Positions 1,829 through 62,719 are shown, numbered from the stretch's first letter. The stretch is DNA of 64,000 bases from Cryomorphaceae bacterium (GCA_020832345.1 JAFIEY010000155.1:4581-68580); one strand, 5' to 3'. Notes: generated by a model not told the origin, from the letters alone. Numbers and translations: made by a program.

Positions 1829-1961
1829 TGAGTCTGCTCTAAAAAGTCCCTTTCTGCCAAAATCTTCCTTGTCGGCATATTTTTGAATCCTCACTTGCTC
1901 CGGTTCAAAAATCCCCTCCGCGTCGATTTTGATTGAAATCATCCTTTTTAGAGTGGTCTCA
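1829..1961 (+). mobile_element. Family-1 palindromic MITE-like element, full-length form A
   Basis: TGAGTCTGCTCTAAAAAG...CTTTTTAGAGTGGTCTCA inverted termini. Exact 4-bp flanking duplication atta at 1825-1828 and 1962-1965. Confidence 0.85.
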
Positions 1962-2232
1962 ATTATTAAAAAATTGATTCAAAAAAATAAACTTTCCAAT
2001 TTGAGGACGGTCATTTTTTCATGAAACCCTCATGAGAAAATCGTTCTCACTAAACAAATCAATCAAAAGTGTGTTCCATTAGTCCCCGGAAAACTCATTT
2101 GGAACAAATGATACGTAAGGTCTCAATAAATCCTATACTTGTATAAAACCAATGTTTAGAAATTAAGTGCCAATAAAGGTTATGGGACGGCAACCATAGA
2201 CTAATTTTGTGAATTAAAGGAAGTCGTCACGG

Positions 2233-2796
2233 ATGGGGAAAAAAGTACAAGAGCGAAGGATATTGGGCATAGACCCGGGAACAACTGTTATGGGCTACGG
2301 CATCATTGAGGGAAAAGGCAATAACGCGACCTTGATTGACCTTAACATTGTTTCCATGCGAAAGATTTCGGATCCTATGGAAAAACTCAAACAAATTTTT
2401 GAGCAGACCATAGCCATTATCGAAAAATACTTGCCCGATGAAATGGCCGTTGAGGCGCCTTTTTACGGCAAAAATGTGCAGTCGATGCTAAAATTAGGTC
2501 GGGCACAAGGCGTGGTCATCGCTGCTGCAATGTACAAAAATATTCCCATCGCAGAATATTCTCCAAGAAAAATAAAACAATCCATCACGGGAAAAGGAAG
2601 TGCCTCAAAGGAACAAGTTGCCGCGGCTTTAAAATACGTAATGAAAAGCGATGAACCCTTGCCAAAACAGCTTGACGCCACGGATGCCGTTGCCGTAGCG
2701 CTATGCCATTTTTTTCAAAACCCCGCTCTTGGGCAGGGAAAGTCCTATAGCGGTTGGGACAGCTTCGTCAAACAAAATCCCGATAAAATTAAATGA
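2233..2796 (+). CDS. ruvC: Crossover junction endodeoxyribonuclease RuvC
   Basis: 187 aa. N-terminal RILGIDPGTTVMGYGII and C-terminal DATDAVAVALCH match the RuvC acidic catalytic motifs. Confidence 0.9.
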   Translation: MGKKVQERRILGIDPGTTVMGYGIIEGKGNNATLIDLNIVSMRKISDPMEKLKQIFEQTIAIIEKYLPDEMAVEAPFYGKNVQSMLKLGRAQGVVIAAAMYKNIPIAEYSPRKIKQSITGKGSASKEQVAAALKYVMKSDEPLPKQLDATDAVAVALCHFFQNPALGQGKSYSGWDSFVKQNPDKIK

Positions 2797-2808
2797 TTTT
2801 TCCGGAAA

Positions 2809-3210
2809 TTAAACCTTATCGTAGTTTAATTTAATCTCCTTCGCTAGGGCCGCAAGTTTCTGGTGATCAGCATTGGTGTTGGCCAAGCGAAAATCCATAT
2901 CTCCTTCCCGATTAATCGGAATTAGGTGGATATGTGCATGTGGAACTTCAAGTCCATAAACGGTAATACCAACCCGGTTACACGGCACGGTTTGCTCTAT
3001 GGCTAACGCAATTTTACGGGCAAAGTCCCAAAGGGCGTGAAAGGCATTTTCATCTAAGTGAAAAAGCTTATCAACTTCCAATTTGGGAACCACCAATACA
3101 TGCCCGTTTTGAACCGGACGAATATCCATAAAAGCAATGGCATGTTCATTTTGGGCGATGACATGAGCGGGTATTTCCCCTCGGATAATCTTGGTGAAAA
3201 TACTGGTCAT
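2809..3210 (-). CDS. HIT-family (histidine triad) nucleotide hydrolase/transferase
   Basis: 133 aa with the histidine-triad motif HAHIHLIP. Confidence 0.85.
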   Translation of the reverse strand: MTSIFTKIIRGEIPAHVIAQNEHAIAFMDIRPVQNGHVLVVPKLEVDKLFHLDENAFHALWDFARKIALAIEQTVPCNRVGITVYGLEVPHAHIHLIPINREGDMDFRLANTNADHQKLAALAKEIKLNYDKV

Positions 3211-3211
3211 A

Positions 3212-3688
3212 TTACTCCATTTTTATATCTATGATATCGAGCATGACAACGCCGCTGGGAACCTGTATTTCTGCTTTTTCACCAACTTTCTTTCCTAACA
3301 GTCCCTTTCCAATAGGACTGTTGACGGAAATTTTACCCGCTTTAATATCAGCTTCAGATTCACTAACGAGCGTATAGGTCATGGTTTGTCCGTTGATAGA
3401 GTTTTTCAAAGTTACAGTAGAAAGTACCATAACCTTGGATGCATCCAGTTGACTTTTGTCGAGCACCCTTGCGTTGGCAATAACATCTTCGAGTTTTGAA
3501 ATTTTCAATTCCAAAAGCCCCTGCGCTTCTTTGGCTGCATCGTATTCAGCATTTTCAGATAAATCACCTTTATCTCGTGCTTCGGCAATTTGGCGAGAAA
3601 TAGAAGGACGAGCTACATTTTTCAGATGATCAAGTTCTTCGCGCAATTTTTTCAATCCCTCCGGGGTATAATAAGAAACTTTCGCCAT
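3212..3688 (-). CDS. greA: Transcription elongation factor GreA
   Basis: YYTPEGLKKLREELDHL...GDLSENAEYDAAKEAQ is the GreA coiled-coil signature. I prefer ATG 3688 (MAKVSYYT, 158 aa) to the track start at 3775. Confidence 0.9.
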   Translation of the reverse strand: MAKVSYYTPEGLKKLREELDHLKNVARPSISRQIAEARDKGDLSENAEYDAAKEAQGLLELKISKLEDVIANARVLDKSQLDASKVMVLSTVTLKNSINGQTMTYTLVSESEADIKAGKISVNSPIGKGLLGKKVGEKAEIQVPSGVVMLDIIDIKME

Positions 3689-3826
3689 GACAGTGCAGTA
3701 TTGTGGGTTAGTAATTGGAAAACACCAAGCTAGAAAATCAAAAGCCTCATTGGTATTAAGCACAAAAAAGACCATCGTTTTGATGGTCTTTCACGCCGCA
3801 AAGGTATAAAGTAATTTGCTAATACA

Positions 3827-4899: not shown

Positions 4900-7800
4900 T
4901 TAAAATGCATTGAGGTCGATCGGGCGCATCGCACCAAACCATTTCACTACTTTTTGGCCAATTTCACCGGCATCAACATGGATAATGTAAACCCCACTGG
5001 TAATTGGTACACCTACGTCATTTGTCAAATCCCAAAGTAAGTACGTATCCGTATTATCTTTACGGAAGGTGCGAATTAAAGTACCAGCTGTGGAAAAGAT
5101 ATTGACATTACAACGCTCTGGCAGGTTAATGATTTTCACAATATTATCCAATTGACTGTTCTCATACATAGAGAATGCAAAGTATGGATTCGGAACCACG
5201 CCAATAAGATCTAGCGCCTCATTGGCAGTAACCATATTTCCGATTCCAGCAGCAATATTGCGGGTACTAAACTCATAGTAGGGCTTGCCGTCATTTATCC
5301 CGCTACTGGTGTTATAGCGCGAGTATGGACGGTTAAAGCGAAGTTTGAAGCGCACCTCAGCTGGTATGTCTTCATAAGGGTTAACATTAGGAAATCCAGG
5401 ACTGAGCAATGGAACGTGTACATACTGAACTGCACCCCAAAAGTTGAGTAGGTGTGATATGTTGTTGTTGTCTTGCAAAAATTGATACAAAGGATGATTA
5501 GCTGGACTATTTCCCTTATAAGTATTATCTATTAGGTTAGCACCAATCTGGGCAATGGGCCGGAAAACATATAAATAGTGCATTCCCCCCATAGATATAT
5601 CAAATCTACGAAACAAATTGGCCGTTGGATTCCACAACATATCGTCTCCATTTTCACTTTTTAACCAGGTGTTTTCCCCAAAAGCCATATTAAGCCGTTC
5701 ACCGGACTCAATATCTATGGCGTAACCCGGAAAATAAGACCAACCCGGATTTTGATTACTGCGAACTAGCTTACCATCACTTGAAAGATCCCAACCAGGT
5801 GCAGTGCGCAGACGATGTTTTAAAATCCCATCTGCAGATTGGGTTGTAGCATATCCATTACCCGTTTGAGCCGCTTCGTCATTCATTTCAAACACAGGTA
5901 CCCGCGTCCACTTGGTGTGGTCTGCCGTTATAACAATATCGACAGAACGAGAATTCATAAGACTTTGCGCTGTTTGCCAAGCGGATTGACCAAATCCAGG
6001 GCCAAATCCCTGAGAAAAATTATTATTGTCTTCCCTTATTCTTAGCCTGCTGACAATTCCATAAGGTGCCCAAGTACGGTTAACCAAATTCCACAAATCA
6101 CAAGGATCATCAATTCGATCTTGATACGTCCGATTTGCAGTATTATCTTGAGTATTAGTGTTAGTTCCAGCTAATATCCAATTAATTGGAGTAAACGAAT
6201 TATCAGAGGTTACACCCATTAACCAAGGTCTATTAGCTGGGGTAAAGGTCACACTACTTCCAATCACCCCAGCATCATATTCACATTCCTCATCTTCTCC
6301 GGGCAGGGGAACATTAGTAATATTTACTGAAAGGCCAATTTCACTAATAATCTGTTCATTATTAAATGCAATAGTCGTGTCGGAATGAATTCCACCTTGT
6401 AAGTTATCAGCACTAGAACCCAACACAACAGTTTCACCATCTTCATTTTCGTAAGTACCTTCCAACACCCAACGGGAATTTGGGCGCAACCTATTGTCGG
6501 CAGGAGCAGGCTCAATATCTCCAATAAAGCGCAATGAAAAATCTCCAGGACGAACCCGCTTAGGGTTTACCACTTTAATATTTACCGGGCCTGCGTTCTG
6601 ACGGTAGGTAATTTCATCAACCCTACCATTACGTAGTATAGCTTCTTCTGATACTTCCGTGAGTTCCAACCAACTCCCCATGTTGCCTATACCGGCAATT
6701 CGGGTAATTTCGGGTGAATCACCATACCTAGAATGTAAATCCAATCCATTACGCTCTGGTTCAGTTTTGTGAGGTATTGCTGTTACTATGGTGTTTGAAC
6801 CACCAAAAGCATTTCTTCTACCGGCCAAATACGGAGTCTGTTGCGATAAATCAGGTTCTACAGGATCAAATTCGCGAAATTGATTCACCGCATAGGCAAT
6901 TACAAAATAGTAATATTCGCGATGATTGACAAGGGTTCTGTCAACTTCATCTGAAAACAAATCTTCGTTAAGTCTAAAGGTAGTACGAATGCCTTTATTT
7001 TCAGACTGAATGGTCATGTCCTGCGGAATAAAGGCATTATTCAAATCAGGTGCACGCTCATAATTAATGAGTTGTCCATGTTCATTCTCAATATCAACTT
7101 GATATACAAGGCGGGATAAATCTGGGTTATAAAGATCAGCTGAGGTAACCGAGGCGTTTCTAAATTGGAAGATTTGAATACCTTCAAATTTATATTCAAA
7201 ATAACCCGCCTGACGAGCAGAATCAATCCTCACCGGATCTTCATCCCAATCCGGTTGATTCACGATAAGCGGGTCAATCTGGCGATAACCGAAATTATAA
7301 TTATTTGACGTTTCGGGATAAGATAATTTTAATATCAATTCGTTGTCCAATTCTACAACTTCAACAAGTGGTGCATCCGGACCGTCGAGAATTTGAAAGC
7401 AATTGTCAAATAGGTTTTGAGCCTTGTCGTCAGCAACTTTTAATAATTCAACTGATGCATAAGGGTCTGGATTAATAAAATCGCGTGCCCAAACCGCTCC
7501 TGTGGTAATAAAGTTCAAAGCACCCGGCTGAAGGGTAAAGGGCCCAGCACAGTGCAAGCCACGCTTATCTGCTAAGTTTGCAGGTGATTCGTACCATCCA
7601 CCATTTGGCCATGGCTCAAAAGGAGGGAAAGTTCCATAATCGAATAACCCTTCAGTTGCACGCCCTGAAGCGGTCGTATCATAAGTTTGCCCAGGAAATG
7701 CAAATAGCGTCCTGATTCCACTATTATCAGTAGAAAACCCTGTTCCATTATTGGTAGAACCTCTACCGCCGGAATGAGTAAACATCAACAAATTATTATT

Positions 7801-9099
7801 TTTCCACTTTGATTGCAAAAAGTTATAAAAATGCGCGCCAAACTCAGGGTTAGTCATAGCTTGATTTGGCCATGAGTTGTTATAATACATAAAACCACTC
7901 ATGATAATCCGTTCATTAATTCCCAAATCAGGGTTTTCGGGAATACAAATCCCTGCACTATCACGAACGGCATCAATACAACCATCTTTGTCGTTATCCA
8001 AGCCATCAAAATAATCGGCAAATGGTCCTTGAAAAAAGTCTAGTCCAATAGCTGGTGGATTGGCGCCATACCCATTGGGGTGAGGCCCGTCAAAAAGTTC
8101 TGCATTATAGCAGTATCCCAATCCTCTGGGGATGTCACAACCGATAAGGTCATCGCGGGGGTCTCCTAAATCTGGGTCAAACCAAGTTCCAAAAAATGCA
8201 TTGGTCAAGGAGAAGGTCGATTTGTTGAGAATACGATAGTTGTAAAACGTCATATTATTGATCTCGTCATTGGTGCTAAATGCAAAGGCCTGAGCCCGAA
8301 TTTCAAAACCAAGCGCACCAGCTTGACTTTCGGTATGCACATTTCCCCTATCGTTATAGACCCACCAGATGGTTCGGTCACCGTAAAGCACATCAATTTC
8401 TTTGAGGCGGCAATCATATTGACGATCGAGGTCAAAACCGGGATAATCAAATTCAGGGTCATATAACCCATCACCGTCTTGATCTTCAAAAGGGGCAAGT
8501 TTAAAAGGCAATGGCGCATCATATCCGCGAATACCGTTACCCGGCCAATCGCGAATTACAACCGGAATTTCGTATCCTGGGAATTGCGTTGCAAGATCAC
8601 AATTAGGATCAATTTGACAATTTAGCCAGGCTCTATGTATTTCTACCTGCTCACGATCAATCATCCAAAAACGATCGTACTCTTGACAAGTTTGACTCGT
8701 AACACTGGCAGTTCCATCATCGGTAAGGGGGCCAGGCCAAAAATCATTACCACGCTGACGATACGTCATAGCAGCCAATTTCAATTGTGAACCCTCATCA
8801 ATTCCACCCAACCAAAGTGCGCCCGAGAACATCGAGTGACGGTTACTTCCCTTAGGCACCTCATATCTGGCTTGACCAGATAGATTCCACCACATATCAC
8901 CTGCAGCCAAAACCCTAGCGCGAACATTGTTTAAATCAAGGTCAATTTGAGCTCGTGCAGGACTACAGAGTTCATTCATTGTTCGTTTGATGGATTTACG
9001 GTTATCCTTTTTTAGACCTTTGATTTCTTCTGCATTTATCTGTGCCCCTGTAAACAGGAAGGCAAGAATTGCCATCAAACTGAGAATTTTCGTTTTCAT
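4900..9099 (-). CDS. Very large secreted protein with Asp-rich Ca-binding-like motifs and a T9SS type-A-like C-terminal sorting domain; family not recognised
   Basis: About 1399 aa from ATG 9099 (MKTKILSLMAILAFLFTGAQINA signal peptide); the track start 9132 would overlap the upstream gene. Carries DQDGDGLYDPEFDYPGFD and DGLDNDKDGCID. The C-terminal ~90 aa (VVPNPY...NIVKIINLPERCNVNIFSTAGTLIRTF...SGVYIIHVDAGE...) looks like a Por secretion tail. Confidence 0.75.
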   Translation of the reverse strand: MKTKILSLMAILAFLFTGAQINAEEIKGLKKDNRKSIKRTMNELCSPARAQIDLDLNNVRARVLAAGDMWWNLSGQARYEVPKGSNRHSMFSGALWLGGIDEGSQLKLAAMTYRQRGNDFWPGPLTDDGTASVTSQTCQEYDRFWMIDREQVEIHRAWLNCQIDPNCDLATQFPGYEIPVVIRDWPGNGIRGYDAPLPFKLAPFEDQDGDGLYDPEFDYPGFDLDRQYDCRLKEIDVLYGDRTIWWVYNDRGNVHTESQAGALGFEIRAQAFAFSTNDEINNMTFYNYRILNKSTFSLTNAFFGTWFDPDLGDPRDDLIGCDIPRGLGYCYNAELFDGPHPNGYGANPPAIGLDFFQGPFADYFDGLDNDKDGCIDAVRDSAGICIPENPDLGINERIIMSGFMYYNNSWPNQAMTNPEFGAHFYNFLQSKWKNNNLLMFTHSGGRGSTNNGTGFSTDNSGIRTLFAFPGQTYDTTASGRATEGLFDYGTFPPFEPWPNGGWYESPANLADKRGLHCAGPFTLQPGALNFITTGAVWARDFINPDPYASVELLKVADDKAQNLFDNCFQILDGPDAPLVEVVELDNELILKLSYPETSNNYNFGYRQIDPLIVNQPDWDEDPVRIDSARQAGYFEYKFEGIQIFQFRNASVTSADLYNPDLSRLVYQVDIENEHGQLINYERAPDLNNAFIPQDMTIQSENKGIRTTFRLNEDLFSDEVDRTLVNHREYYYFVIAYAVNQFREFDPVEPDLSQQTPYLAGRRNAFGGSNTIVTAIPHKTEPERNGLDLHSRYGDSPEITRIAGIGNMGSWLELTEVSEEAILRNGRVDEITYRQNAGPVNIKVVNPKRVRPGDFSLRFIGDIEPAPADNRLRPNSRWVLEGTYENEDGETVVLGSSADNLQGGIHSDTTIAFNNEQIISEIGLSVNITNVPLPGEDEECEYDAGVIGSSVTFTPANRPWLMGVTSDNSFTPINWILAGTNTNTQDNTANRTYQDRIDDPCDLWNLVNRTWAPYGIVSRLRIREDNNNFSQGFGPGFGQSAWQTAQSLMNSRSVDIVITADHTKWTRVPVFEMNDEAAQTGNGYATTQSADGILKHRLRTAPGWDLSSDGKLVRSNQNPGWSYFPGYAIDIESGERLNMAFGENTWLKSENGDDMLWNPTANLFRRFDISMGGMHYLYVFRPIAQIGANLIDNTYKGNSPANHPLYQFLQDNNNISHLLNFWGAVQYVHVPLLSPGFPNVNPYEDIPAEVRFKLRFNRPYSRYNTSSGINDGKPYYEFSTRNIAAGIGNMVTANEALDLIGVVPNPYFAFSMYENSQLDNIVKIINLPERCNVNIFSTAGTLIRTFRKDNTDTYLLWDLTNDVGVPITSGVYIIHVDAGEIGQKVVKWFGAMRPIDLNAF

Positions 9100-9119
9100 A
9101 ATCGGAAGCTTTAATGTTA

Positions 9120-12100
9120 CTAGAACGTCCACATAATACCCAGCCGAACTCGGCGAGGCAATGAGAAATTAAATGGATTGGTCATACGTGCGGTGTATAA
9201 ATCAGCAAATGCTTGTGCGCTTACAGATTGTGCAATTACGTCACGTGCACGATTTGAGGTGATGTAACCATCATCATCAGCAGCACCTGTAAAGTTATAA
9301 ACGTTCAAAACGTTTCTATTGTTAAATACATTCAGAATTTGAATATAAACATCGATATTTTTTCCTTTTTTTAAGTCGCCATAAACAAAACTCTTATTGA
9401 TTCGCATATCAGCCCGGTATTGCCATGGTAAGCGAGAACCATTAATTTGACCCTGAACCGGCACAGCACCTGAAGGGTTGTCCGTTAATGGATATGCCCA
9501 CTCCCTACGCGTATATGGTGTTCCGGAGTTTGCATTTAATACAAAATTTACTCCGGCATTCGCAAATACTTGCTTATCCCACCAAACAGGTCCATCATAG
9601 CTTGTTCCAGAACTGTAACGATAATCAAAGCGCACGGTAGCCTGATGACGTGAATCAAAACTGAGCGGAAGGATAAAGCGAATGTTTGGTTGCTCTGTCC
9701 GTGCCAAGTTGGCCGCAGTATTTGGCCCTGAACCTGTACCATCAGCAAACTGCAAGGTATAGTTGGCAAAAACGGTAAAGTTTTTATAGCGTCGAAGGTC
9801 ATATTCAAGCGAGAAACCCTTTACTGTTGAAAAGTCCATGTTTCCATAGGTAATATAGTTACCAGGGAAAGCGCCTACCATCGCTATGGTCTGCATCATG
9901 TCGCGCATTTCCCGATAGAAACCGGAAATTTTCATTGAGCTACGCTTGGTTAGCACTTGGGTAAAACCTAATTCGTAATCCGTTGTGCGCTGTGGTAGCA
10001 AATTGGGATTACTAATCGGGTTGTTGGTGCCTTTAAGTACCTCGTATTCCAACATTACAATAGGGTCGAAACGCGATAATGCAACATCCGGACGCTGGGC
10101 CAAAACATCATAGTGGGCAAAGAACAATGCCTCATCAGTAACAGGAAAGTTAAAGTTGATACGGGGCATGACAACTATCTGTGGCGTATAATCGGTAAAG
10201 GACTCAGCATCTAACTGAAGATCGTTGGGATCCTGAAAGAACAGTGGGCGAACAGAACCACCACCGGCATCAGCAATGTCCTTGGGGTTGGGCAAGGGCG
10301 AACCATCACTGCCAAACCAATTTCTGCCAGAGCGGTATCCTACAATATTTGGTTCTTGGTTTGAACTTAAAAAGTTATAATCCGACACATACACCGTATA
10401 ATCACGACCGATAGAACTCGGTACATTCTCGTCAGAAATATTTTCAAATTGACTCAATTGATCAACAGTGCTTGCTGGGTATAAAAGGAAAGGATCTTTG
10501 AGAACCGGCTGGTTGGCATCGTACCGGTCAACCCGTAAACCAACATTAAAACGAAGATTATTAAAAGTAAACTGATCCTGCACAAAAAGAGCCATATAAA
10601 TAGGCTCAAAGGCACCGACCGGACGAGCCAAGGTCCCATCATCATTCCGCTGGGTAAAGAAATCTTCGATGGTAGGACGACCGCGAAGTAATTGGCCGGT
10701 GTGGTCAAAACCATAAAAACTTGCCAATCGCGAACCATTCAAATTAATCATTTGATCGGCAGAAAACATACCAAGAGAGAATTCACTGGGATCATAGCCA
10801 TCAATATTGATGAAGTCCAATCCACGAGGATCTAAACCCTGAGCTGTTCTAAATCGACGGGTGAATGCATTTTGTTGCCAATCGGTTTCTGAAAACAAGC
10901 GAGGGTATAAAATGGTATCCTGAAAAACGCCGTTTTCATCATAAATGGGCATGGGATTGTCAAAATCAAATTCGTTGATGTGATCGTTTTGCAACAAACG
11001 CATCTGATTCCATAAACCTTGTCCATTTACAATAAACCCTCTGTCAAATCTTTGTTCGTATTCACCACCCACAATGAGTGAGTGACCCTTAATATCAAAG
11101 GTTACAGAACCTGAGATTCGAAACTGTGAATTTCTAATTTGTCTATATTGAGATTGAACCCCATCAACAAATTGGGATTGTACGGCACCAACGTTACCCC
11201 AAATTCCATTATAGACCGACTCAGGATTATCTCCATTGAGCAAACCACGAAATGCGCGAATTGCATCAAATGTCCGAGTATTACCCAAAAGTGGATTATC
11301 TGCTACCGCTTGGTATAAGTATGAGGTGTAGGCTGCCAAAACCGGATTGTGTTCACTCGGCGTAAATGCAATCATGGTATCTTGAGGTGCAATGGCCCTC
11401 CAGCCTTGTAAACCTGTCGTTGCATCAGTTCCCTGCTGGTAAAAGAAGGAAGAATATCGATCAAAGGTTCCAACATGACCATACGCAAAAAAATTATCCT
11501 GATGGCGCGGATCTTGAACAATTCTATTGTTGCGTGTATAATCCACTTGTAAAACCAAAAATGCATTTTGAATGGTATTGGTTTTACTTTCTTCTTGTCG
11601 CTCTTCACCTCTACCACCGGTTTGGTTACCCGTGAAACTGTGTGTAATCCGTCCAAATACGGCTAAATCCGTGTTTATAAACTCGAGGTAATTGTCATAG
11701 TTGAATAATGATTGACCAAAATTGGTGTTCGTTCCCCTTGAATGAACAAATCTACCTCCAAGGGTAAAGTTTGTTTTTTCATTAATGGCAAAGTTAAAAT
11801 TGTTGGTGACCCGAATATCGTATTGGCCAGCATTTAAACGTGCGGGAATAACCTCCAAATCATCCATGGTGACAAATTCAGCGTTAGCGAGAACACCCTG
11901 ACCTGTACCTGCTGGTCTTACCGGTACTTGGCGTATTTGATCCAAAAGCTCTGGACGTACCTGATACATGTCGGTATTGGCCGGACGCGGATCATGCTCG
12001 TGCTGAAACTCGATGGCCGTAAGAAATCCCATTATGGGCTTTTTGGTGTCGTCTTTTCGCTTGATGAGCGGCCCTCCAGCGGTAAAGGCAAAAAGGTTAT

Positions 12101-18901: not shown

Positions 18902-19122
18902 ATATAAAAATTTAGTTTGTTCAAAATACTGACTGGCAAAATTACGCGGCAAAATATTGGTATGCAAAACAGATTTTCAATTACGATGAATCGTAATTTT
19001 ATATTCGCAATTCAACAAATTTGTGTCATTCCTCACCTTATAAGCTGATGGGTATCATTTTTTTTTCTACAAACACCCAATACTTTTGTCACCTAAATTA
19101 CCCCAACAAAAACCATTGCTCC

Positions 19123-19800
19123 ATGTTCGTTAAACCGGACCACATTGAAAAACTTGCCCGGCATTTCCCGGCCACTACCCAGGAATGGCGCAACAGCATC
19201 CTGGAAAACGGGCGTGTTTTTACCTCCGAATTGGGTGCAGATATTATTCGCGAGGGAGATTCCGCTAAATGTGTTTTCATTTTATCCGGGCTGGGTTTGT
19301 GCATTTCAAATGAAAAAGCCACATTAGTAACACCTGGAAAGTGTATTGGTTTACAAGAAACTTTTTCATCGGTGAAAACGCCCAGCACCATTTCCAATGA
19401 CCAGAACGAACGAAAAACTCAGGGGAATTTTTTGCCCTTTAATTGTAAAATTCAAACCATTAGCAATAAATTGGTTTACCTCGTCATTGAGGGAGATGCT
19501 GTTTTGAAAAGCGTGAAAAAAAATCCGGCACTTCAAGAAACCTGGTTTTATTTGCTCAACCAATGGTTTGAGGATGAAATGATCAGCGGACTTACCTTGT
19601 TTCAAAAAAGAACCAAAGACCGGATAAAAGAAGCGCTCAATTGCATACGAATTCACGCCGATGGCCACGTCAATTTTCCCATTAAATACCTTCAAGCCCT
19701 CACGGGTATAAGCAGGAGCAGTATGTATCGATGTCTGCGGGAAATGCAAACTACGGAGAATCGGGGTTTGTTATTTGAGAATGGAGTCGTTTACTTATGA
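19123..19800 (+). CDS. Crp/Fnr-like transcriptional regulator (cNMP-binding-like domain plus C-terminal HTH)
   Basis: ATG 19123 (MFVKPDHIEKL). The effector-domain-like part is GADIIREGDSAKCVFILSG and the HTH-like part is LTGISRSSMYRCLREM. The TGA stop (19798-19800) is the first 3 nt of a family-1 element. Confidence 0.6.
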   Translation: MFVKPDHIEKLARHFPATTQEWRNSILENGRVFTSELGADIIREGDSAKCVFILSGLGLCISNEKATLVTPGKCIGLQETFSSVKTPSTISNDQNERKTQGNFLPFNCKIQTISNKLVYLVIEGDAVLKSVKKNPALQETWFYLLNQWFEDEMISGLTLFQKRTKDRIKEALNCIRIHADGHVNFPIKYLQALTGISRSSMYRCLREMQTTENRGLLFENGVVYL

Positions 19801-19850
19801 GTCTGCTCTAAAAAGTCCCTTTCTGCCAAAATCTTCCTTTAGTGTTTTCA
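19798..19850 (+). mobile_element. Family-1 element, degenerate short or truncated copy
   Basis: TGAGTCTGCTCTAAAAAGTCCCTTTCTGCCAAAATCTTCCTTT is followed by a decayed right end, AGTGTTTTCA. No flanking duplication is visible. Confidence 0.7.
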
Positions 19851-22022: not shown

Positions 22023-22166
22023 TGAGTCTTCTCAAAAAAGTCCCTTTCTGCCAAAATCTTCCTTGTCTATAGACTTTTGAATCGTCACTAACAGCTGATT
22101 AGCTCCGGTTCAAAAATCCCGTCCGCGTCGATTTTAATTGAAATCATCCTTTTTAGAGTGGACTCA
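22023..22166 (+). mobile_element. Family-1 element, full-length form B (extra apical mini-hairpin)
   Basis: Both termini are present and the centre carries CTAACAGCTGATTAG. Exact flanking duplication accc at 22019-22022 and 22167-22170. Confidence 0.85.
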
Positions 22167-22814: not shown

Positions 22815-22871
22815 TGAGTCTGCTTTAAAAAGACCCTTTCTGCCAAAATCATCCTTTTTGGAGAGGACTCA
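22815..22871 (+). mobile_element. Family-1 element, 57-bp short form
   Basis: The left and right arms are fused at GCCAAAATC|ATCC. Exact flanking duplication ataa at 22811-22814 and 22872-22875. The left copy contains the TAA stop of the upstream gene. Confidence 0.85.
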
Positions 22872-23498: not shown

Positions 23499-23555
23499 GC
23501 GGATAGAACTGGGATTCTAAAAGGGGGGCTTTGGTTTTCTATTGCTTTACCATTA

Positions 23556-23680
23556 TGTCTGCTCCAAAAAGTCCCTTTCTGCCAAAATCTTCCTTTTCGG
23601 TAGATTTTTGAATCCTCACTTGCTCTGGTTCAAAAACCCCCTCGATTTTGATTGAAATCATCCTTTTTAGAGTGGACTCA
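23556..23680 (+). mobile_element. Family-1 element, form A
   Basis: The left terminus is TGTCTGCTCC, which lacks the AG of the consensus. Exact 6-bp flanking duplication ccatta at 23550-23555 and 23681-23686. Confidence 0.85.
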
Positions 23681-26287: not shown

Positions 26288-26426
26288 TGAGTCTGCTCAA
26301 AAAAGTCCCTTTCTGCCAAAATCTTCCTTGTCGGTAGATTTTTGAATCCTCACTAACGGATGGTTAGCTCTGATTTAAAAATCTCCTCGATTTTGATTGA
26401 AATCATCCTTTTAGGAGTGGACTCAC
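26288..26426 (+). mobile_element. Family-1 element, full-length form B
   Basis: Both termini are present and the centre carries CTAACGGATGGTTAG. The flanks match at only 3 of 4 positions (ttgt / ctgt). Confidence 0.85.
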
Positions 26427-29105: not shown

Positions 29106-29190
29106 TGAGTCTGCTCTAAAAAGTCCCTTTCTGCAAAAATCCCCACTGCGTCGATTTTGATTGAATTCATCCTTTTTGGAGTGGACTCTA
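29106..29190 (+). mobile_element. Family-1 element, internally deleted (85 bp)
   Basis: Both termini are present, the right one decayed to GGACTCTA. The junction is CTGCAAAAATC|CCCACTGCGTCG. Confidence 0.8.
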
Positions 29191-34354: not shown

Positions 34355-34499
34355 TAAGTCCACGCCAAAAAGTCCCTTTCTGCCAAAATCTTCCTTGTTA
34401 GTAGATTTTTGAATCCTCACTAACAGACAGTAAGCTGCGGTTTAAAAACCTCCTCCACGTCGATTTTGATTGAGATCATGCTTTTTGGCGTTGACTTCA
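34355..34499 (+). mobile_element. Family-1 element, form B, diverged copy with co-varying termini
   Basis: Starts 1 nt after the kinase TAA stop. The termini are TAAGTCCACGCCAAAAAG / CTTTTTGGCGTTGACTTCA. CTCT became CGCC in the left arm, with the matching AGAG to GGCG change in the right arm. Confidence 0.8.
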
Positions 34500-35105: not shown

Positions 35106-35111
35106 ACCGCT

Positions 35112-36329: not shown

Positions 36330-36719
36330 ATGAGCAATAATTTACTAATTGTAGATGATGATCCCATAATCCACTTGATTTCCAAAAGGTTTTTAAGTAA
36401 AATAGGGTTTGAAGAGGGCATACTTAGCTTCATGAATGGTCAAGAGGCCATGGACTTTATTTCCGAATCATATCAAAACGAATCAAAATACTTGATTTTA
36501 CTCGACCTCAACATGCCCATTATGAATGGCTGGGAATTCTTAGAATCAATGCGGTCAAATTCGCTTGCGCAAAATGAAAACATCACCATAATCGTGGTGA
36601 CGTCTTCCATAGATAAAGAAGATGAAGATCGCGCCAGGGCTTACGAAATCGTACATGATTACCTGTCAAAACCATTAACCCTTGAGCAATTTGAATATGT
36701 TTTAGAAGCGCTCAAATAA
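36330..36719 (+). CDS. Stand-alone response-regulator receiver
   Basis: 129 aa. LLIVDDDPII...ILLDLNMPIMNG...VVTSS...LSKP. Confidence 0.85.
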   Translation: MSNNLLIVDDDPIIHLISKRFLSKIGFEEGILSFMNGQEAMDFISESYQNESKYLILLDLNMPIMNGWEFLESMRSNSLAQNENITIIVVTSSIDKEDEDRARAYEIVHDYLSKPLTLEQFEYVLEALK

Positions 36720-41253: not shown

Positions 41254-41310
41254 TGAGACTGCTCTAAAAAGTCCCATTCTGCCAAAATCATCCTTTTTAG
41301 AGTGGACTCA
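41254..41310 (+). mobile_element. Family-1 element, 57-bp short form
   Basis: TGAGACTGCTCTAAAAAGTCCCATTCTGCCAAAATC|ATCCTTTTTAGAGTGGACTCA. Confidence 0.85.
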
Positions 41311-41584: not shown

Positions 41585-41670
41585 TGAGTCTGCTCTAAAA
41601 AGTCCCTTTCTGCCAAAATCTTCCTTGTGGGTAGATTTTGATTGAAATCATCCTTTTTGGAGTGGACTCA
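41585..41670 (+). mobile_element. Family-1 element, internally deleted (86 bp)
   Basis: Both termini are intact and the junction is GTAGATTTT|GATTGAAATC. Confidence 0.85.
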
Positions 41671-49863: not shown

Positions 49864-49920
49864 TGAGTCTGCTCCAAAAAGTCCCTTTCTGCCAAAATCT
49901 TCCTTTTTCGAGTGTACTCA
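49864..49920 (+). mobile_element. Family-1 element, 57-bp short form
   Basis: Junction AAAATCTTCCTT|TTTCGAG. Exact flanking duplication actg at 49860-49863 and 49921-49924. Its last 3 nt (TCA) are the TGA stop of the minus-strand gene 49918-50592. Confidence 0.85.
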
Positions 49921-50592
49921 ACTGTTAATGTCCATAAATTTTTTCACATCATCCATCTTTCCAAAAATAATCACCAAATCACCTTTTCGGATTTTGGTTT
50001 CGGGATAAGGCACGCCCAAAATATGATGGGTTCCGCCATCATCGGCTCGCAATACAGTCACGAGATTGAGATTGTATTTCTCCCGCAAACCGATTTCCGA
50101 GAGCTTGGTGTCCCAAAGTGTATTGGGCGCAGGAATTTCTATAATTTCGTAGGTGTCGGGAAGTTGAACCGCCATCAAGACACTCGGGTTAATGAGCTGT
50201 TGTGCTACGCCATTACTGACCTCGTCTTCGATACTCATGATTTCCCGCACGCCCATTTTCTCCAATATGCGCTTTTGAATCTCATCTTGCGCCCTGGCAA
50301 TGATGCGCTCCACACCGATTTCCTGAAGAGCATAGGTGGTGAGAATCAAATCCTGAAAACTCGCACCAATGGCCACCACCACGGCATCCATATCGAGAAT
50401 GTTTTGCGACATAAGCGCCTTCGGATCCGAGGAGTCCAAACACACGGTATAGGAGAGCACCTCCTTTAGGTCTTCGACTTTATCCTCGCTAATGTCGATA
50501 CCCAAAACATCTGCTCCCAGATTGACCAATTTTTTGGCGATGGCCGTCCCGAATCGTCCCAACCCGATAACGGCAATTTTCTTTTGTTGCAT
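49918..50592 (-). CDS. TrkA/KtrA-type potassium-transporter regulatory subunit (RCK N and C domains)
   Basis: 224 aa with the Rossmann motif KIAVIGLGRFGTAIAKKL and a TrkA-C-like C-terminal half. Confidence 0.85.
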   Translation of the reverse strand: MQQKKIAVIGLGRFGTAIAKKLVNLGADVLGIDISEDKVEDLKEVLSYTVCLDSSDPKALMSQNILDMDAVVVAIGASFQDLILTTYALQEIGVERIIARAQDEIQKRILEKMGVREIMSIEDEVSNGVAQQLINPSVLMAVQLPDTYEIIEIPAPNTLWDTKLSEIGLREKYNLNLVTVLRADDGGTHHILGVPYPETKIRKGDLVIIFGKMDDVKKFMDINS

Positions 50593-51822: not shown

Positions 51823-51956
51823 TGAGTCTGCTCTAAAAAGTCCCTTTCTGCCAAAATCTTCCTTGTCGGTAGATTTTCGAATCCTAACTTGCTCCGGTTC
51901 AAAAATCCCTTCCGCGTCGATTTTGATTGAAATCATCCTTGTTTGGAGTGGACTCA
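51823..51956 (+). mobile_element. Family-1 element, full-length form A, in a divergent promoter region
   Basis: Both termini are intact. It lies between the starts of 50599-51768 (-) and 52020-52943 (+). Confidence 0.85.
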
Positions 51957-59093: not shown

Positions 59094-59109
59094 TGAGTCC
59101 ACTCCAAAA
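59094..59109 (-). repeat. Family-1 element, 16-nt terminal fragment
   Basis: TGAGTCCACTCCAAAA is the reverse complement of the family-1 right terminus. Nothing else of the element is present. Confidence 0.5.
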
Positions 59110-59176
59110 TTGTAGGCATAATGTTATTTGTTATACGCCTCATAACGTGTCTATTACCGTATGGAAATTCTTTTAA

Positions 59177-60292
59177 TTACCTTTGGTGCGTGCTACAAAG
59201 TTCATAATTTGTGCTTCGTCCACCGCTTGCATCTTTTTGTAAAATATCCTTCTTCATTAAATCTTGAATATCTCGGAGAGCAGTATCCTGTGAGCACTTG
59301 TTGATTTTCGCCCATTTCGATGTCGTCAACTTTCCATCAAAACCATCCAGTAGTCTGTTTATTATTTTTTGCTGCCTATCATTGAGAATTGTTGTAGCAT
59401 GTAATTTCCAAAATTCTGCTTTTTGAAATACTTTAGATAAAGTTTCTTCTGAGGAATAAATCGCATTTAATAAGCATTGTAAAAACCACAAAATCCACTC
59501 TGTAATATCTGAATTTCCTTTTTGTGTTTTCTCAAGTTTTTCGTAATACTTTTTCCTATCCATTCTAATTTGAGCCGACATGCTATAAAAACGTCTAATA
59601 CTCTTATCTGAACGAGCCAACATCATGTCCGTAATTGCCCGTGTAATTCGTCCGTTCCCGTCATCGAATGGGTGAATTGTCACGAACCAAAAATGAGCAA
59701 TAGCTGCCTTAAGAACCAAATCTATTTCATGCTCGCTTTCAAACCAATCTAAGAACGCATTCATCTCTGCTTCTATCCTTTCTGAACTTGGCGCTTGATA
59801 ATGAACTTTTTCTTTTCCCATAGGGCCCGAAACAACTTGCATGGGACCAGTCGTGTCTTTTCTCCAGTCTGCAACTGTGATTTTATAGAGATTACTCCAA
59901 CCTGAAGGGAATAGTGCAGCATGCCAACCAAACAACCTGTCTTTAGTCAAAGGCACATCATATCTTTGTGTAGCGTCAAGCATCATTTCAACGATTCCAT
60001 CAACGTGGCGATCCGATTCCACAGCGCCCGCAATATCTATTCCTAGTCGCCTAGCAATTGAAGAACGTACTTGTCCTATATCCAAAAACTCACCTTCTAT
60101 TTCTGAAGATTTAATCACATCTAAAGTAAGCGTGTTCAAAACCGCTTCATTTTGCAAATCAAAACCAAGCGATTCCATTTTACCCAACAGTCTTCCTTGT
60201 TGGTTTCTTGCTTCCCCAAGTTTTATCATCACTTTTTTATTGTCCCAAGTGAAGTCTGTCCAGTTTTCGTTCTCGTGAATATAAATTTTCAT
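59177..60292 (-). CDS. fic: Fic-family AMPylase (Fic_N, Fic core and C-terminal winged-helix-like domain), class II with an intramolecular inhibitory motif
   Basis: 371 aa from ATG 60292 (MKIYIHENENWTDFTW). Core motif HPFDDGNGRITRAITD. The inhibitory-helix-type motif SSEIEG fits (S/T)xxxE(G/N) and lies upstream of the core. AT-rich compared with neighbouring genes. Confidence 0.9.
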   Translation of the reverse strand: MKIYIHENENWTDFTWDNKKVMIKLGEARNQQGRLLGKMESLGFDLQNEAVLNTLTLDVIKSSEIEGEFLDIGQVRSSIARRLGIDIAGAVESDRHVDGIVEMMLDATQRYDVPLTKDRLFGWHAALFPSGWSNLYKITVADWRKDTTGPMQVVSGPMGKEKVHYQAPSSERIEAEMNAFLDWFESEHEIDLVLKAAIAHFWFVTIHPFDDGNGRITRAITDMMLARSDKSIRRFYSMSAQIRMDRKKYYEKLEKTQKGNSDITEWILWFLQCLLNAIYSSEETLSKVFQKAEFWKLHATTILNDRQQKIINRLLDGFDGKLTTSKWAKINKCSQDTALRDIQDLMKKDILQKDASGGRSTNYELCSTHQR

Positions 60293-60337
60293 TCTCCGCA
60301 AATTATGCGACAAATATACAGCTTATTCTCCGCAAAT
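60291..60337 (-). promoter_or_regulatory. Tandem 13-bp direct repeat at the fic start
   Basis: ATTCTCCGCAAAT occurs at 60291-60303 (overlapping the ATG) and at 60325-60337, giving a 34-bp period. On the coding strand it reads ATTTGCGGAGAAT. Confidence 0.3.
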
Positions 60338-60930: not shown

Positions 60931-60950
60931 AGCTTGTCCATAAAGTCAAA

Positions 60951-61073: not shown

Positions 61074-61122
61074 TAATTATATTTGGCTTGGACTCATTGC
61101 GATTTCCACAGCCTATATAGCC

Positions 61123-61461
61123 ATGTATTTTGAGGCGATTAAGTTAGGTGAAAAAGATGTATTTTTTATTTTATCACTCAATTTGTATTTCTTTCTTTTT
61201 TTTATTGTCGAAACTGAATTCCCCATTGAGGTTTATGAAAAAGGAATTCTTAGAACAAATAGAATTTTAAAAATGGTCGAATGGAATGATGTGCTTGACG
61301 TGGAATTGATCCGTAAAGGCGATCTGTTTATTTCTATTTTTTTATCCGAAAATGAGGAAATCCTAATAAACACTGGCCCATTTGCCCTTCAGGGATGTAA
61401 AAAGGAAAAAATATTGAACTTCTTACAAAATCAAATCCACCCCAAAAGTCAAAGTGCTTAA
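61123..61461 (+). CDS. Hypothetical protein (possibly 5'-truncated)
   Basis: 112 aa. The frame is open upstream to 61066 and encodes a TM-like WLGLIAISTAYIA with no ATG, so this may be a remnant or use a non-ATG start. Confidence 0.35.
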   Translation: MYFEAIKLGEKDVFFILSLNLYFFLFFIVETEFPIEVYEKGILRTNRILKMVEWNDVLDVELIRKGDLFISIFLSENEEILINTGPFALQGCKKEKILNFLQNQIHPKSQSA

Positions 61462-61465
61462 GCTA

Positions 61466-61598
61466 TGCGTCCACTCCAAAAAGGATGATTTCAATCAAAA
61501 TCAACTCAAAGGGAATTTTTGAACCGCAGCAAGTGAGGATTCAAAAGTCTATCGACAAGGAAGATTTTGGCAGAAAGGGGCTTTTTGGAGCAGACTGA
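61466..61598 (-). mobile_element. Family-1 element, full-length form A, inverted orientation
   Basis: TGCGTCCACTCCAAAAAGGATGATTTCAATC...GGCAGAAAGGGGCTTTTTGGAGCAGACTGA, with slightly decayed termini. Confidence 0.85.
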
Positions 61599-61712
61599 TA
61601 ATGGTTAATGTACTTTTTTAGCAATTGACATCTTGTGAATGAAGTCTTTTCTCATCAAGCACTTTCTCCATTCGGGTTTGTTTCCGTATAAATTTAAGAT
61701 GCTAATAATATC

Positions 61713-62519
61713 TCAATCCATAATACATCGTACAGAATATCCATTAGCCCGTGAATCGCCACCCGCAGAGGTAATATGATTATTGAAGTACAATACCCTA
61801 GCATTTCCATTCACCACGGTGTTTGACCAATATCCGCCATGTTCAACACTATTGTCAATATCACCATCCGTGCGCTTGCGTGAATAGGCTGTTGTCAACT
61901 TTAGTGGTGAGTCAAAAGCTCCCGAAGCATCATCGCTACTCCAAGTTTGAACTTCTTGTTCCCATTCGGTAATGGTAGGTAATCTGTACCCGGTGGGACA
62001 TGGATTATTCTCTCCATTTACACCTTGCCATAAACTATTATTTTGAGGAGTCAACCAGTCAAAAGGAGCAAGATTAGGTAAAATAAATTCTCCATGACCG
62101 GGTTGAGGACTGGTTGCTAAAATATTAGTGATTCCGGAATTTCTCACCTGATGCCCGTCATCTCCTCTCCCCCACTGGTACAAATCTCCGTAAGCTCCCG
62201 AGTCATTGGAAGCGTTGGCAACCCTACTTGCGCCTAGATTGCGATCAATCCAAATACGTCCCGTAGTGGGATTACATACTGTTCCCGGAGGAAGATTATC
62301 GCATGCGTTGGCAGGAACACAAATGGCTTGACAAGAAACAAGAGAGGAGAAATTGCCATTAGCATCCTCTTCACAATTTCCCTCCACACAACTGTAACGC
62401 TTAGGCGTATCACCACCACCCCCATTGGTATTGCTGTCATCGTCTTTGTTGCAATTGGTGTTTAATGCAAAAAGGGCCACTACGAGCCAAAGTCTAGAAA
62501 TTTTGTTTAGTTTTTTCAT
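61713..62519 (-). CDS. FISUMP-domain (Fibrobacter succinogenes major paralogous domain) lipoprotein
   Basis: 268 aa with the lipobox LNTNC. Carries WIDRNLGA, YGDLYQWGR, CPTGYRLPT, YWS and a C-terminal GYSVRCI. Confidence 0.8.
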   Translation of the reverse strand: MKKLNKISRLWLVVALFALNTNCNKDDDSNTNGGGGDTPKRYSCVEGNCEEDANGNFSSLVSCQAICVPANACDNLPPGTVCNPTTGRIWIDRNLGASRVANASNDSGAYGDLYQWGRGDDGHQVRNSGITNILATSPQPGHGEFILPNLAPFDWLTPQNNSLWQGVNGENNPCPTGYRLPTITEWEQEVQTWSSDDASGAFDSPLKLTTAYSRKRTDGDIDNSVEHGGYWSNTVVNGNARVLYFNNHITSAGGDSRANGYSVRCIMD

Positions 62520-62581
62520 GTTGATGGTTATTTGATTGGGTAAAAGTAGAAAATAAATAAATGAATTGAAAGACTAAACAT

Positions 62582-62719
62582 TGAATCAACTCCAAAAAGG
62601 ATGGTTTCAATCAAAATCGAGGGGATTTTTAAATCAGAGCTAACCATCCGTTAGTGAGGATTCAAAAGTCTATCGACAAGGAAGGTTTTGGCAGAAAGGG
62701 GCTTTTTGGAGCAGACCCA
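62582..62719 (-). mobile_element. Family-1 element, full-length form B, inverted orientation
   Basis: Its central core is identical to the copy at 26288-26426 (CTAACGGATGGTTAG). The termini are decayed (TGAATCAACTCC...GAGCAGACCCA). Confidence 0.85.

What the first reader, a model, noticed from the sequence alone, without database searches (positions are those of the whole stretch)
1829..62719. Family of ~135-bp palindromic TIR elements (MITE-like): 15 copies in 64 kb, all intergenic
The long-form consensus is TGAGTCTGCTCTAAAAAGTCCCTTTCTGCCAAAATCTTCCTTGTCGGTAGATTTTTGAATCCTCACTTGCTCCGGTTCAAAAATCCCCTCCGCGTCGATTTTGATTGAAATCATCCTTTTTAGAGTGGACTCA. The two ends are 18-nt inverted repeats that match at 16 of 18 positions. 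Internal words also pair (TTTC/GAAA, CAAAATC/GATTTTG, GATTTTTGAA/TTCAAAAATC), so the whole unit folds into a rod. The copies lie at 1829, 19798, 22023, 22815, 23556, 26288, 29106, 34355, 41254, 41585, 49864, 51823, 59094 (fragment), 61466 and 62582. Together they make up about 1.5 kb, or about 2.3% of the window. Five copies have exact flanking direct duplications: atta, accc, ataa, ccatta and actg. A 4-bp match is expected by chance about once in 256 trials per copy, so five matches argue for transposition rather than a REP-type origin. TG...CA termini with 3-5 bp target duplications are characteristic of IS3-family transposition, but linking this element to that family is inference only. No transposase lies in this window. 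At this density the genome could hold hundreds of copies.
Basis: partly seen in the sequence, partly recalled or inferred. Interest (0 to 1): 0.8.

Follow-up and report, generated by a model that had tools for sequence, protein, structure and literature searches.

The report
MITE family from IS1182-like insertion sequences
The repeats are real: they are small non-coding transposon derivatives (MITEs) whose ends match those of a 1.8-kb IS1182-like insertion sequence, not an IS3 element; this is an ordinary kind of bacterial repeat, but unusually dense in this uncultured soda-lake bacterium.

Summary
Observation confirmed. The window holds 15 copies of one repeat: 13 with both ends (57-144 bp) and 2 fragments. 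They total about 1.49 kb (2.3%). All are intergenic, though two overlap a stop codon by 3 nt. The window is a contig of a Cryomorphaceae MAG.

The MITE reading is supported. Exact 4-bp flanking duplications occur in 7 of 16 two-ended copies (13 in the window, 3 in two other MAGs), against about 3% in flank-swapped controls (P about 2e-7).

The IS3 link is not supported. A metagenome scan with the terminus found full-length insertion sequences of 1811-1852 bp that carry the same ends. One IS end is identical to the MITE left end over 21 of 21 nt. Another is identical to the MITE right end over 17 of 17 nt. These ISs encode a single 550-580-aa DUF772 transposase whose best family match is IS1182, well below the curated cut-off. 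In 10 independent insertions they make 4-bp duplications (8 of 10) with A at -5 and T at +5 (10 of 10). The MITE copies show the same flank signature (15 of 17 and 16 of 17, counting a related 315-bp element).

No transposase lies in the window. The direct parent IS and empty sites were not found. IS1182-derived MITEs with 18-bp inverted repeats and 4-bp duplications are already described. This is a new member of a known kind.

The parts
1829..1961 (+). Long MITE copy, 133 bp, with 4-bp duplication ATTA/ATTA. Lies in a divergent gap upstream of a RuvC-like gene.
   Evidence: 95.5% identical to the family consensus
19798..19839 (+). Truncated copy with the left 42 nt only. Its first three bases, TGA, are the stop codon of ORF 19021-19800.
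22023..22166 (+). Long copy, 144 bp, with an 11-nt central hairpin insertion. 4-bp duplication ACCC/ACCC.
22815..22871 (+). Short copy, 57 bp, carrying an internal deletion between the direct repeats ATCTTCCTT and ATCATCCTT. 4-bp duplication ATAA/ATAA. It starts immediately after the TAA stop of ORF 22242-22814.
23554..23680 (+). Long copy, 127 bp. Flanked by CCAT(TA) on both sides; the left terminus is altered (TATGTC).
26288..26425 (+). Long copy, 138 bp. The flanking 4-mers TTGT and CTGT match at 3 of 4 positions. Lies between tRNA-Gly and a glycosyltransferase gene.
29106..29188 (+). Medium copy, 83 bp, carrying a deletion between CAAAATC and CAAAAATC. No duplication. Starts 12 nt after the stop of ORF 28686-29093.
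34355..34498 (+). Long copy, 144 bp, the most diverged (86.5% to the consensus), with matched changes in both arms. It starts immediately after the TAA stop of the 1674-aa PAS histidine kinase gene.
41254..41310 (+). Short copy, 57 bp. Flanks TAAG(C) and TAAG form a duplication apart from one extra C at the left junction.
41585..41670 (+). Medium copy, 86 bp, carrying a deletion between GATTTTTGA and GATTTTGA. Lies downstream of groEL and is antisense to it.
49864..49920 (+). Short copy, 57 bp, with 4-bp duplication ACTG/ACTG. The reverse complement of its last three bases is the TGA stop of the TrkA-like gene 49918-50592(-).
51823..51956 (+). Long copy, 134 bp, no duplication. Lies in the divergent gap between a Cys/Met PLP enzyme gene and a PALP enzyme gene.
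59094..59109 (-). Solo fragment, 16 nt of one end (TGAGTCCACTCCAAAA on the + strand). Lies beside a Fic/DOC gene.
61466..61598 (-). Long copy, 133 bp. It has no duplication of its own. Its outer flank TAGC matches the outer flank of the next copy (62582-62719).
62582..62719 (-). Long copy, 138 bp. With copy 61466-61598 it brackets gene 61713-62519 in direct orientation, and the outer flanks read A-TAGC ... TAGC-T.

Best explanation
[quoted passage not shown] They are non-coding derivatives that keep only the two roughly 18-bp ends of an insertion sequence, and they are moved in trans by that IS's transposase.

The cognate IS family is 1.81-1.85 kb long and encodes one 550-580-aa transposase. 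The transposase has a DUF772 N-terminal domain and is distantly related to IS1182 within the IS5-like DDE group.

Proposed mechanism. The transposase binds the terminal repeats TGAGTCYRCTCTAAAAAG, excises or copies the element, and inserts it at an A+T-rich, loosely palindromic target (TnnA|NNNN|TnnA) with a 4-bp staggered cut. Repair of that cut duplicates NNNN. The boundaries could equally be drawn as a 6-bp duplication ANNNNT with element ends GAG...CTC; the data cannot tell these apart.

The rod-like interior plays no demonstrated role. The short and medium forms arose by deletion between short internal direct repeats, and at least the 57-bp form is also found at other, unrelated sites in two other MAGs.

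Insertions survive in intergenic DNA, often right at stop codons. The likely reason is that TAA-containing sites fit the target preference and such insertions leave the protein unchanged.

Shown: the copies, the duplications, the identity of the ends to IS ends, and the shared flank signature. Inferred: trans-mobilisation, the cleavage geometry, and current activity.
For: - Copies and termini are far above chance.
- Exact 4-bp flanking duplications occur in 7 of 16 two-ended copies, against 2.9% in flank-swapped controls (P = 1.6e-7). Three more copies are off by one base or one inserted base.
- A metagenome scan with the terminus found L011, where the terminus abuts a transposase ORF, and L012, a 315-bp element with the same 18-bp ends but an unrelated core.
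- The transposase has 557 homologues, mostly on contigs of about 1.8-2.0 kb.
- In the full IS copy L013, the right end is identical to the MITE left end over 21 of 21 nt. In L019-L022, the right end TTTTTAGAGTGGACTCA is identical to the MITE right end over 17 of 17 nt.
- Ten independent IS insertions show a 4-bp duplication in 8 of 10, A at -5 and T at +5 in 10 of 10, and T at -8 and A at +8 in 9 of 10. The MITE copies show A at -5 in 15 of 17 and T at +5 in 16 of 17.
- Transposase family: DUF772 is above the Pfam cut-off, and the best NCBIfam match is IS1182.
- Published IS1182-family elements give 4-bp repeats (ISPse1, PMC3281130). An IS1182-derived MITE with 18-bp inverted repeats, 4-bp repeats and a stem-loop fold is described (MITEPye1, PMC11578231).
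- The family occurs at unrelated sites in two other MAGs. One of these, from the REDE01 MAG, is 97.9% identical to the family consensus, although that MAG's urocanase is only 82% identical in protein sequence to the window's.
Against: - No empty orthologous site or presence/absence polymorphism could be found. The nearest genomes available (82-83% urocanase identity) lack both the element and the synteny.
- No transposase was found in the 64-kb window or in 25 kb of the two other MAGs that carry the element.
- The ISs recovered share only the terminal 17-21 nt with the MITE, so the direct parent is unidentified.
- Nine of 16 copies lack an exact duplication.
- Window copies are only 86-96% identical to the consensus, so most insertions may be old and the family may no longer be active.
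- The transposase scores 57-78 bits against the IS1182 model, whose cut-off is 270. Family placement is therefore approximate.
Confidence: 0.88

Rival explanations
1. REP/BIME-type structural repeat. On this view the copies are palindromic intergenic units spread and maintained by a RAYT (IS200/IS605-like Y1) enzyme or by selection on hairpin function, not by DDE transposition.
For: The copies are intergenic and numerous, and they fold as hairpins or rods on both strands. No transposase lies nearby.
Against: REP elements do not make target duplications, whereas 7 of 16 copies here have exact 4-bp duplications. The ends are identical to the ends of DDE-type ISs with the same flank signature. 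No Y1/RAYT gene was seen in the window.
Confidence: 0.03
2. Functional structured RNA or regulatory module, such as a transcript stabiliser, terminator or small RNA. On this view the palindromic shape is kept by selection and mobility is incidental.
For: - The fold is strong (z = -7.9).
- The two mismatches between the terminal repeats are both G:U on the element's + strand.
- Copy 34355 has matched changes in both arms.
- Seven of 13 copies lie within 12 nt of a gene's stop codon.
Against: - No Rfam family matches.
- Only 3 of 41 predicted pairs show a compensatory change, and pairs are often broken.
- Orientation relative to transcription is mixed: 4 co-oriented and 3 antisense in tandem gene gaps.
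- No terminator-like or promoter-like excess was found.
- The G:U asymmetry is explained by the differing left and right ends of the parent ISs (TCTGC versus TCCAC or CCTAC).
Confidence: 0.06
3. IS3-family MITE. On this view the TG...CA ends and 3-5-bp duplications reflect mobilisation by an IS3-type OrfAB transposase.
For: The ends begin TG and finish CA, and the duplication is 4 bp, as in the IS407 group of IS3 (general knowledge).
Against: All 11 full-length or partial ISs recovered with these ends encode a single DUF772 transposase. Its best match is IS1182, and no IS3 family model appears among its family matches. A 4-bp duplication is also the IS1182 pattern (PMC3281130).
Confidence: 0.02

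Closest known systems
MITEPye1 of Paracoccus yeei (IS1182-family-derived MITE; PMC11578231)
   Same: Both are non-coding and intergenic, have 18-bp terminal inverted repeats similar to the ends of IS1182-family elements, make 4-bp direct repeats, and are predicted to fold into a long stem-loop.
   Different: The host phylum differs (Alphaproteobacteria versus Bacteroidota), and I did not compare the two sequences. MITEPye1 is present at 1-3 chromosomal copies per genome, whereas this family has 15 copies in 64 kb. The cognate transposase here matches the IS1182 model only weakly.
IS1182 family insertion sequences (e.g. ISPse1: 1653 bp, 16-bp inverted repeats, 4-bp repeats; PMC3281130)
   Same: The cognate ISs found here have a single ORF, a DUF772 N-terminal domain, terminal inverted repeats and 4-bp target duplications. 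IS1182 is the best-scoring family model.
   Different: Scores of 57-78 bits lie far below the NCBIfam cut-off of 270. The ISs are 1.81-1.85 kb, with a 550-580-aa transposase. The target context is marked (A at -5, T at +5), and I could not check this against ISfinder entries.
Correia elements (CREE/NEMIS) of Neisseria
   Same: Both are about 100-150 bp, with terminal inverted repeats, rod-like folds, hundreds-scale density, long and short forms that differ by an internal deletion, and insertion close to genes (from general knowledge, not tested here).
   Different: Correia elements duplicate TA and have 26-bp repeats. They carry documented promoter, IHF-binding and RNase III sites, and no cognate transposase is known. 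Here the duplication is 4 bp, a cognate IS family is identified, and no regulatory role is shown.
REP/BIME elements with RAYT transposases
   Same: Both are abundant intergenic palindromic repeats.
   Different: REPs are 20-40 nt, make no target duplication, and are associated with Y1 RAYT genes. None of these features applies here.

Membership tests
MITE (bacterial miniature inverted-repeat transposable element) | Small (under about 500 bp) with no coding capacity | tested here: met
   Copies are 57-144 bp. No ORF of 100 aa or more lies within a copy; two ORFs in the list merely run into a copy from outside.
MITE (bacterial miniature inverted-repeat transposable element) | Terminal inverted repeats | tested here: met
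   The 18-nt ends match at 16 of 18 positions, and 13 copies keep both ends.
MITE (bacterial miniature inverted-repeat transposable element) | Target-site duplications of fixed length flanking copies | tested here: met
   Exact 4-bp duplication in 7 of 16 copies against 2.9% in flank-swapped controls, P = 1.6e-7. Three further copies are near-matches.
MITE (bacterial miniature inverted-repeat transposable element) | Termini shared with an autonomous, transposase-encoding element | tested here: met
   The MITE left end is identical to the L013 IS right end over 21 of 21 nt. The MITE right end is identical to the L019-L022 IS right end over 17 of 17 nt.
MITE (bacterial miniature inverted-repeat transposable element) | Evidence of mobility: empty sites or insertion polymorphism between strains | tested here: inconclusive
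   No close relative of the window genome is available. The nearest genomes (82-83% urocanase identity) lack synteny at the insertion sites. Copies at unrelated sites in three MAGs are indirect support.
IS1182 family (as source or mobiliser) | The cognate transposase belongs to the IS1182 family model | tested here: inconclusive
   NF033551 is the best hit but scores only 57-78 bits against a cut-off of 270. DUF772 is above its cut-off. DDE_Tnp_1 reaches its cut-off only in P0123.
IS1182 family (as source or mobiliser) | 4-bp target duplication, as in published members | tested here: met
   8 of 10 IS insertions and 7 of 17 MITE copies. ISPse1 has a 4-bp direct repeat (PMC3281130).
IS1182 family (as source or mobiliser) | A cognate IS is present in the same genome | not testable with these tools
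   Only 64 kb of this MAG is available and it holds no transposase. The genome's proteins are not in the gene-position index.
   All ISs with these termini encode one DUF772 protein of 550-580 aa, and no IS3 family model appears among its family matches.
REP/BIME | No target duplication; association with a RAYT (Y1) gene | tested here: not met
   Duplications are present, and no Y1 transposase is in the window.

The most novel reading that the evidence does not exclude
The recovered ISs may form an uncatalogued, deeply divergent IS1182-like clade of Bacteroidota with a near-invariant palindromic target (TnnA-N4-TnnA). Its MITE derivative may have crossed species boundaries among soda-lake Flavobacteriales recently: the copy from another MAG is 97.9% identical to the family consensus, while that MAG's urocanase is only 82% identical. 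The MITE may have expanded to about 2% of one genome and may insert preferentially at stop codons, where its TGA-bearing ends can replace the native stop without changing the protein.
Probability: 0.3. Interest if true: 0.4.

Novelty: new member of a known kind. Interest (0 to 1): 0.3.

Why it matters
The finding gives the repeat a concrete mechanism and a testable partner. Anyone annotating this Cryomorphaceae lineage can mask the family, expect assembly breaks at its copies, and look for a 1.8-kb DUF772 transposase gene with ends TGAGTCYRCTCTAAAAA.

If the density of one copy per 4.3 kb holds genome-wide, it would be a heavy MITE load for a bacterial genome. That could make these genomes a useful natural system for studying how a MITE expands without damaging genes, here apparently by landing at stop codons.

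The strict A(-5)/T(+5) flank signature shared by the IS and the MITE is a clean marker for target-site studies of a poorly characterised transposase clade. Beyond that, the finding is ordinary: MITEs derived from IS1182-type elements are already described.

Tried and rejected
- Rfam at gathering thresholds found only tRNA-Gly and no RNA family at any copy.
- Exact-word scans for an internal 22-24-mer of the element found nothing in viral contigs or JGI metagenomes. A degenerate terminus scan of viral contigs also found nothing.
- BLASTN of the consensus against plasmids and phages gave no match.
- Empty-site search. The window's own proteins are not in the gene-position index. The urocanase relatives at 82-83% identity (L003-L009) carry no element and are not syntenic at the insertion sites. 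The orphan protein 22242-22814 has no homologue other than itself.
- RNA-structure reading. RNAalifold on nine long copies gave a covariation term of +0.42 kcal/mol and only 3 compensated pairs, so this reading was dropped.
- Type IIS site idea. GAGTC, the PleI/MlyI site, sits at both ends. Both sites point inward, so they cannot explain the flanking 4-mers. Rejected by inspection.
- Composite-transposon idea for 61466-62719. The outer flanks share TAGC, but with about 10 adjacent copy pairs and a chance rate of 1-3% per pair this is not significant. The gene between the copies is not a transposase. It is kept only as a passing note.
- Promoter and terminator scans showed no excess and no consistent hits in copies.
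- Last context look-up. The transposase from an Arthrospira culture assembly (L025) has the family's end and flank signature but is not the direct parent.
- tblastn of the transposase against plasmids found only distant archaeal and alphaproteobacterial 'transposase' hits.


Full report
**1. The observation**

The terminal 18-mer TGAGTCTGCTCTAAAAAG occurs 19 times in the window at up to 3 mismatches, against 0.08 expected from shuffles. There are eight long copies (127-144 bp), two medium (83 and 86 bp), three short (57 bp) and two fragments (42 and 16 nt). Together they make up about 1.49 kb, or 2.3% of the window.

The two ends match at 16 of 18 positions. Both strands fold into a rod, with z-scores of -7.9 and -5.9.

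The medium and short forms are each explained by a deletion between short direct repeats inside the element: ATCTTCCTT/ATCATCCTT, GATTTTTGA/GATTTTGA and CAAAATC/CAAAAATC. This can be read directly.

**2. Host and setting**

Two window proteins are 100% identical to proteins of 'MAG: Cryomorphaceae bacterium' (locus tags JJU02_) on a 73-kb contig. The genes are ordinary chromosomal ones. They include urocanase, GroES/EL, ribonucleotide reductase, ETF, GreA, RuvC, a 1674-aa PAS histidine kinase and a TonB-dependent receptor.

No transposase was found among the 47 longer ORFs scanned against Pfam. No transposase fragment was found by tblastn either.

All copies are intergenic, but two overlap a gene by its stop codon. 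The TGA that opens copy 19798 is the stop of ORF 19021-19800. The reverse complement of the last three bases of copy 49864-49920 is the TGA stop of the TrkA-like gene. Copies 22815 and 34355 start on the base after a TAA stop, and copy 61466 lies 4 nt from one.

Orientation does not follow transcription. In gaps between same-strand genes, four copies are co-oriented with the genes and three are antisense. Twelve of 15 copies are on the + strand.

**3. Are the flanking duplications real?**

I counted the 13 two-ended window copies plus three copies in two other MAGs, L001 and L002. Seven of these 16 have an exact 4-bp direct duplication: ATTA, ACCC, ATAA, CCAT(TA), ACTG, CTTA and GTTT.

The proper null rate is not 1/256. 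Flanks swapped between copies match in 2.9% of pairs, and random window positions match in 0.5%. Even with the 2.9% rate, the binomial probability is 1.6e-7. Three more copies are one change away: TTGT/CTGT, ATAA/ATTA, and TAAG with one extra C.

There is an unexpected extra signal. The base at -5 is A in 15 of 17 copies and the base at +5 is T in 16 of 17, including copies that have no duplication (the 17th copy is the L012 element described in section 4).

**4. Finding the autonomous partner**

Scans with internal words of the element found nothing. A scan of metagenome contigs with the terminus alone (TGAGTCTGCTCYAAAAAGYCC) gave three hits.

- One lies inside a coding region and is a chance match.
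- L012 holds a 315-bp element with the same 18-bp ends, TGAATCTGCTCTAAAAAG ... CTTTTTAGAGCAGACTCA. Its core is palindromic but unrelated to the window family.
- In L011 the terminus abuts an ORF that matches the IS1182 transposase model weakly.

A homology search with that ORF returned 557 proteins. The closest hits are about 500-590 aa, nearly all carry Pfam DUF772, and most sit on contigs of about 1.8-2.0 kb, which is the size of an IS. Fetching their contexts gave 10 independent full-length insertions of 1811-1852 bp and one partial copy.

Their ends are TGAG(Y)(Y)(Y)(R)CTCTAAAAA at one end and its inverted complement, TTTTTAGAG...CTCA, at the other. The right end of the L013 IS is identical to the MITE left end over 21 nt (TGAGTCTGCTCTAAAAAGTCC). 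The right end of the L019-L022 IS (TTTTTAGAGTGGACTCA) is identical to the MITE right end over 17 nt.

The two-base difference between the MITE's arms mirrors the left/right end asymmetry of these ISs. That removes the need for an RNA-pairing explanation of the G:U positions.

**5. Same insertion signature**

The ISs show a 4-bp duplication in 8 of 10 insertions (TTGC three times, ACAA twice, ATAA, GCCA, TGGT). They have A at -5 and T at +5 in 10 of 10, and T at -8 and A at +8 in 9 of 10. This is the signature seen at the MITE copies.

It implies a loosely palindromic target, TnnA|NNNN|TnnA, cut with a 4-bp stagger. The boundaries could equally be drawn as a 6-bp duplication ANNNNT with element ends GAG...CTC, and the data cannot separate the two.

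Two recent IS copies (L013 and L019) also lack a duplication yet keep the A/T context. MITE copies without a duplication are therefore not evidence against transposition. Exchange of flanks by recombination between copies is a plausible cause, but that is inference.

**6. Family of the partner**

The transposases pass the Pfam DUF772 cut-off (30.6-38 bits against 23.1). One of them barely reaches the DDE_Tnp_1 cut-off. The best NCBIfam model is IS1182, at 57-78 bits against a curated cut-off of 270, followed by IS5 and ISNCY models. No IS3 family model appears among the matches.

Published IS1182-family elements make 4-bp repeats (ISPse1, PMC3281130). A MITE derived from that family, with 18-bp inverted repeats, 4-bp repeats and a stem-loop fold, has been named (MITEPye1, PMC11578231).

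The partner is therefore best described as a divergent IS1182-like element. The IS3 inference is not supported.

**7. Rival readings**

- REP/BIME is excluded by the duplications and by the identity of the ends to IS ends.
- A selected RNA structure is unlikely. There is no Rfam match, only 3 of 41 pairs show compensation, orientation relative to genes is mixed, and there is no terminator or promoter signal.

**8. Age and spread**

Window copies are 86.5-96.2% identical to the family consensus. The copy from the REDE01 MAG is 97.9% identical to it, although that MAG's urocanase is only 82% identical to the window's. The elements sit at unrelated sites in the different MAGs.

This fits a master sequence shared between species, either by horizontal transfer or by recent activity. 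That is inference. The urocanase relatives at 82-83% identity from other genomes carry no copy in about 90 kb examined. Another 12.8 kb of the REDE01 MAG also has none, so density varies.

**9. What is missing**

- The direct parent, an IS that shares subterminal sequence with the MITE, was not found.
- No empty site could be examined.
- Genome-wide copy number is unknown.
- ISfinder could not be consulted.

**10. Verdict**

The partner family is corrected from IS3 to IS1182-like. The kind of element is well known, so novelty is modest: a new family, at high local density, in an uncultured lineage, with a clean target signature.

Noticed in passing
window 61466-62719: Two same-orientation MITE copies bracket gene 61713-62519(-), which encodes a 268-aa protein with a weak, sub-threshold Fib_succ_major match. 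Their outer flanks read A-TAGC ... TAGC-T, as expected if the whole 1.25-kb unit had inserted as a composite. With about 10 adjacent copy pairs this may be chance. The region also has the lowest G+C in the window (0.40).
   Followed up: partly
window 19798-19800, 22812-22815, 34352-34355, 49918-49920, 61459-61466: Five of the 15 copies touch a stop codon or lie within 4 nt of one. In two of these the element's own terminal TGA serves as the gene's stop. For 49864, the reconstructed empty site shows the original TAG stop replaced by the element's TGA with no change to the protein.
   Followed up: partly
L012 3694-4008 (marine metagenome contig ORXT01000609): A 315-bp element has the same 18-bp ends as the window MITE but an unrelated, strongly palindromic core, downstream of an Mfd/TRCF-like gene. 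It appears to be a second MITE family of the same IS group in another organism.
   Followed up: partly
L016 2906-4750: One IS copy has an aberrant right end. The last 9 bp (GTTCACTCA) are missing, and the flank ATATGGT is repeated on both sides. This looks like a junction deletion or an atypical cleavage.
   Followed up: no
L014, L015, L017, L018, L022 flanks of the IS: Several IS insertions lie in stretches rich in GATTGTT, ATTGTT or ATGGTT words, and three share the same duplicated 4-mer TTGC. This IS subgroup may prefer a particular host repeat or a TKGY core.
   Followed up: no
window 22242-22814 and 22917-23498: Two tandem paralogous genes encode 190-aa and 193-aa proteins with hydrophobic N-termini that are 33% identical to each other. 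The first has no homologue other than itself among 5.8 billion clustered proteins. MITE copies lie before, between and after the two genes.
   Followed up: partly
window 4900-9132 and 9120-12836 (- strand): A 1410-aa protein with no Pfam match lies directly downstream of, and overlaps by 13 nt, a 1238-aa protein with CarboxypepD_reg and Plug domains (TonB-dependent receptor-like). A PorV/PorP-like gene is next to them.
   Followed up: no
window 29330-36719: A 1674-aa sensor kinase with many PAS domains, one GAF domain and HisKA/HATPase domains is followed by three response-regulator genes. A MITE copy sits between the kinase gene's stop codon and the first regulator gene.
   Followed up: no
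window, whole: Twelve of the 15 copies are on the + strand, and GC skew is negative across most of the window (cumulative skew falls from about 0.03 to -0.72). A link between insertion orientation and replication direction is possible, but it cannot be tested on 64 kb.
   Followed up: no
window 59094-60313: A 16-nt solo end of the MITE lies 68 nt from the 3' end of a DUF4172-Fic/DOC gene (59177-60313, - strand).
   Followed up: no
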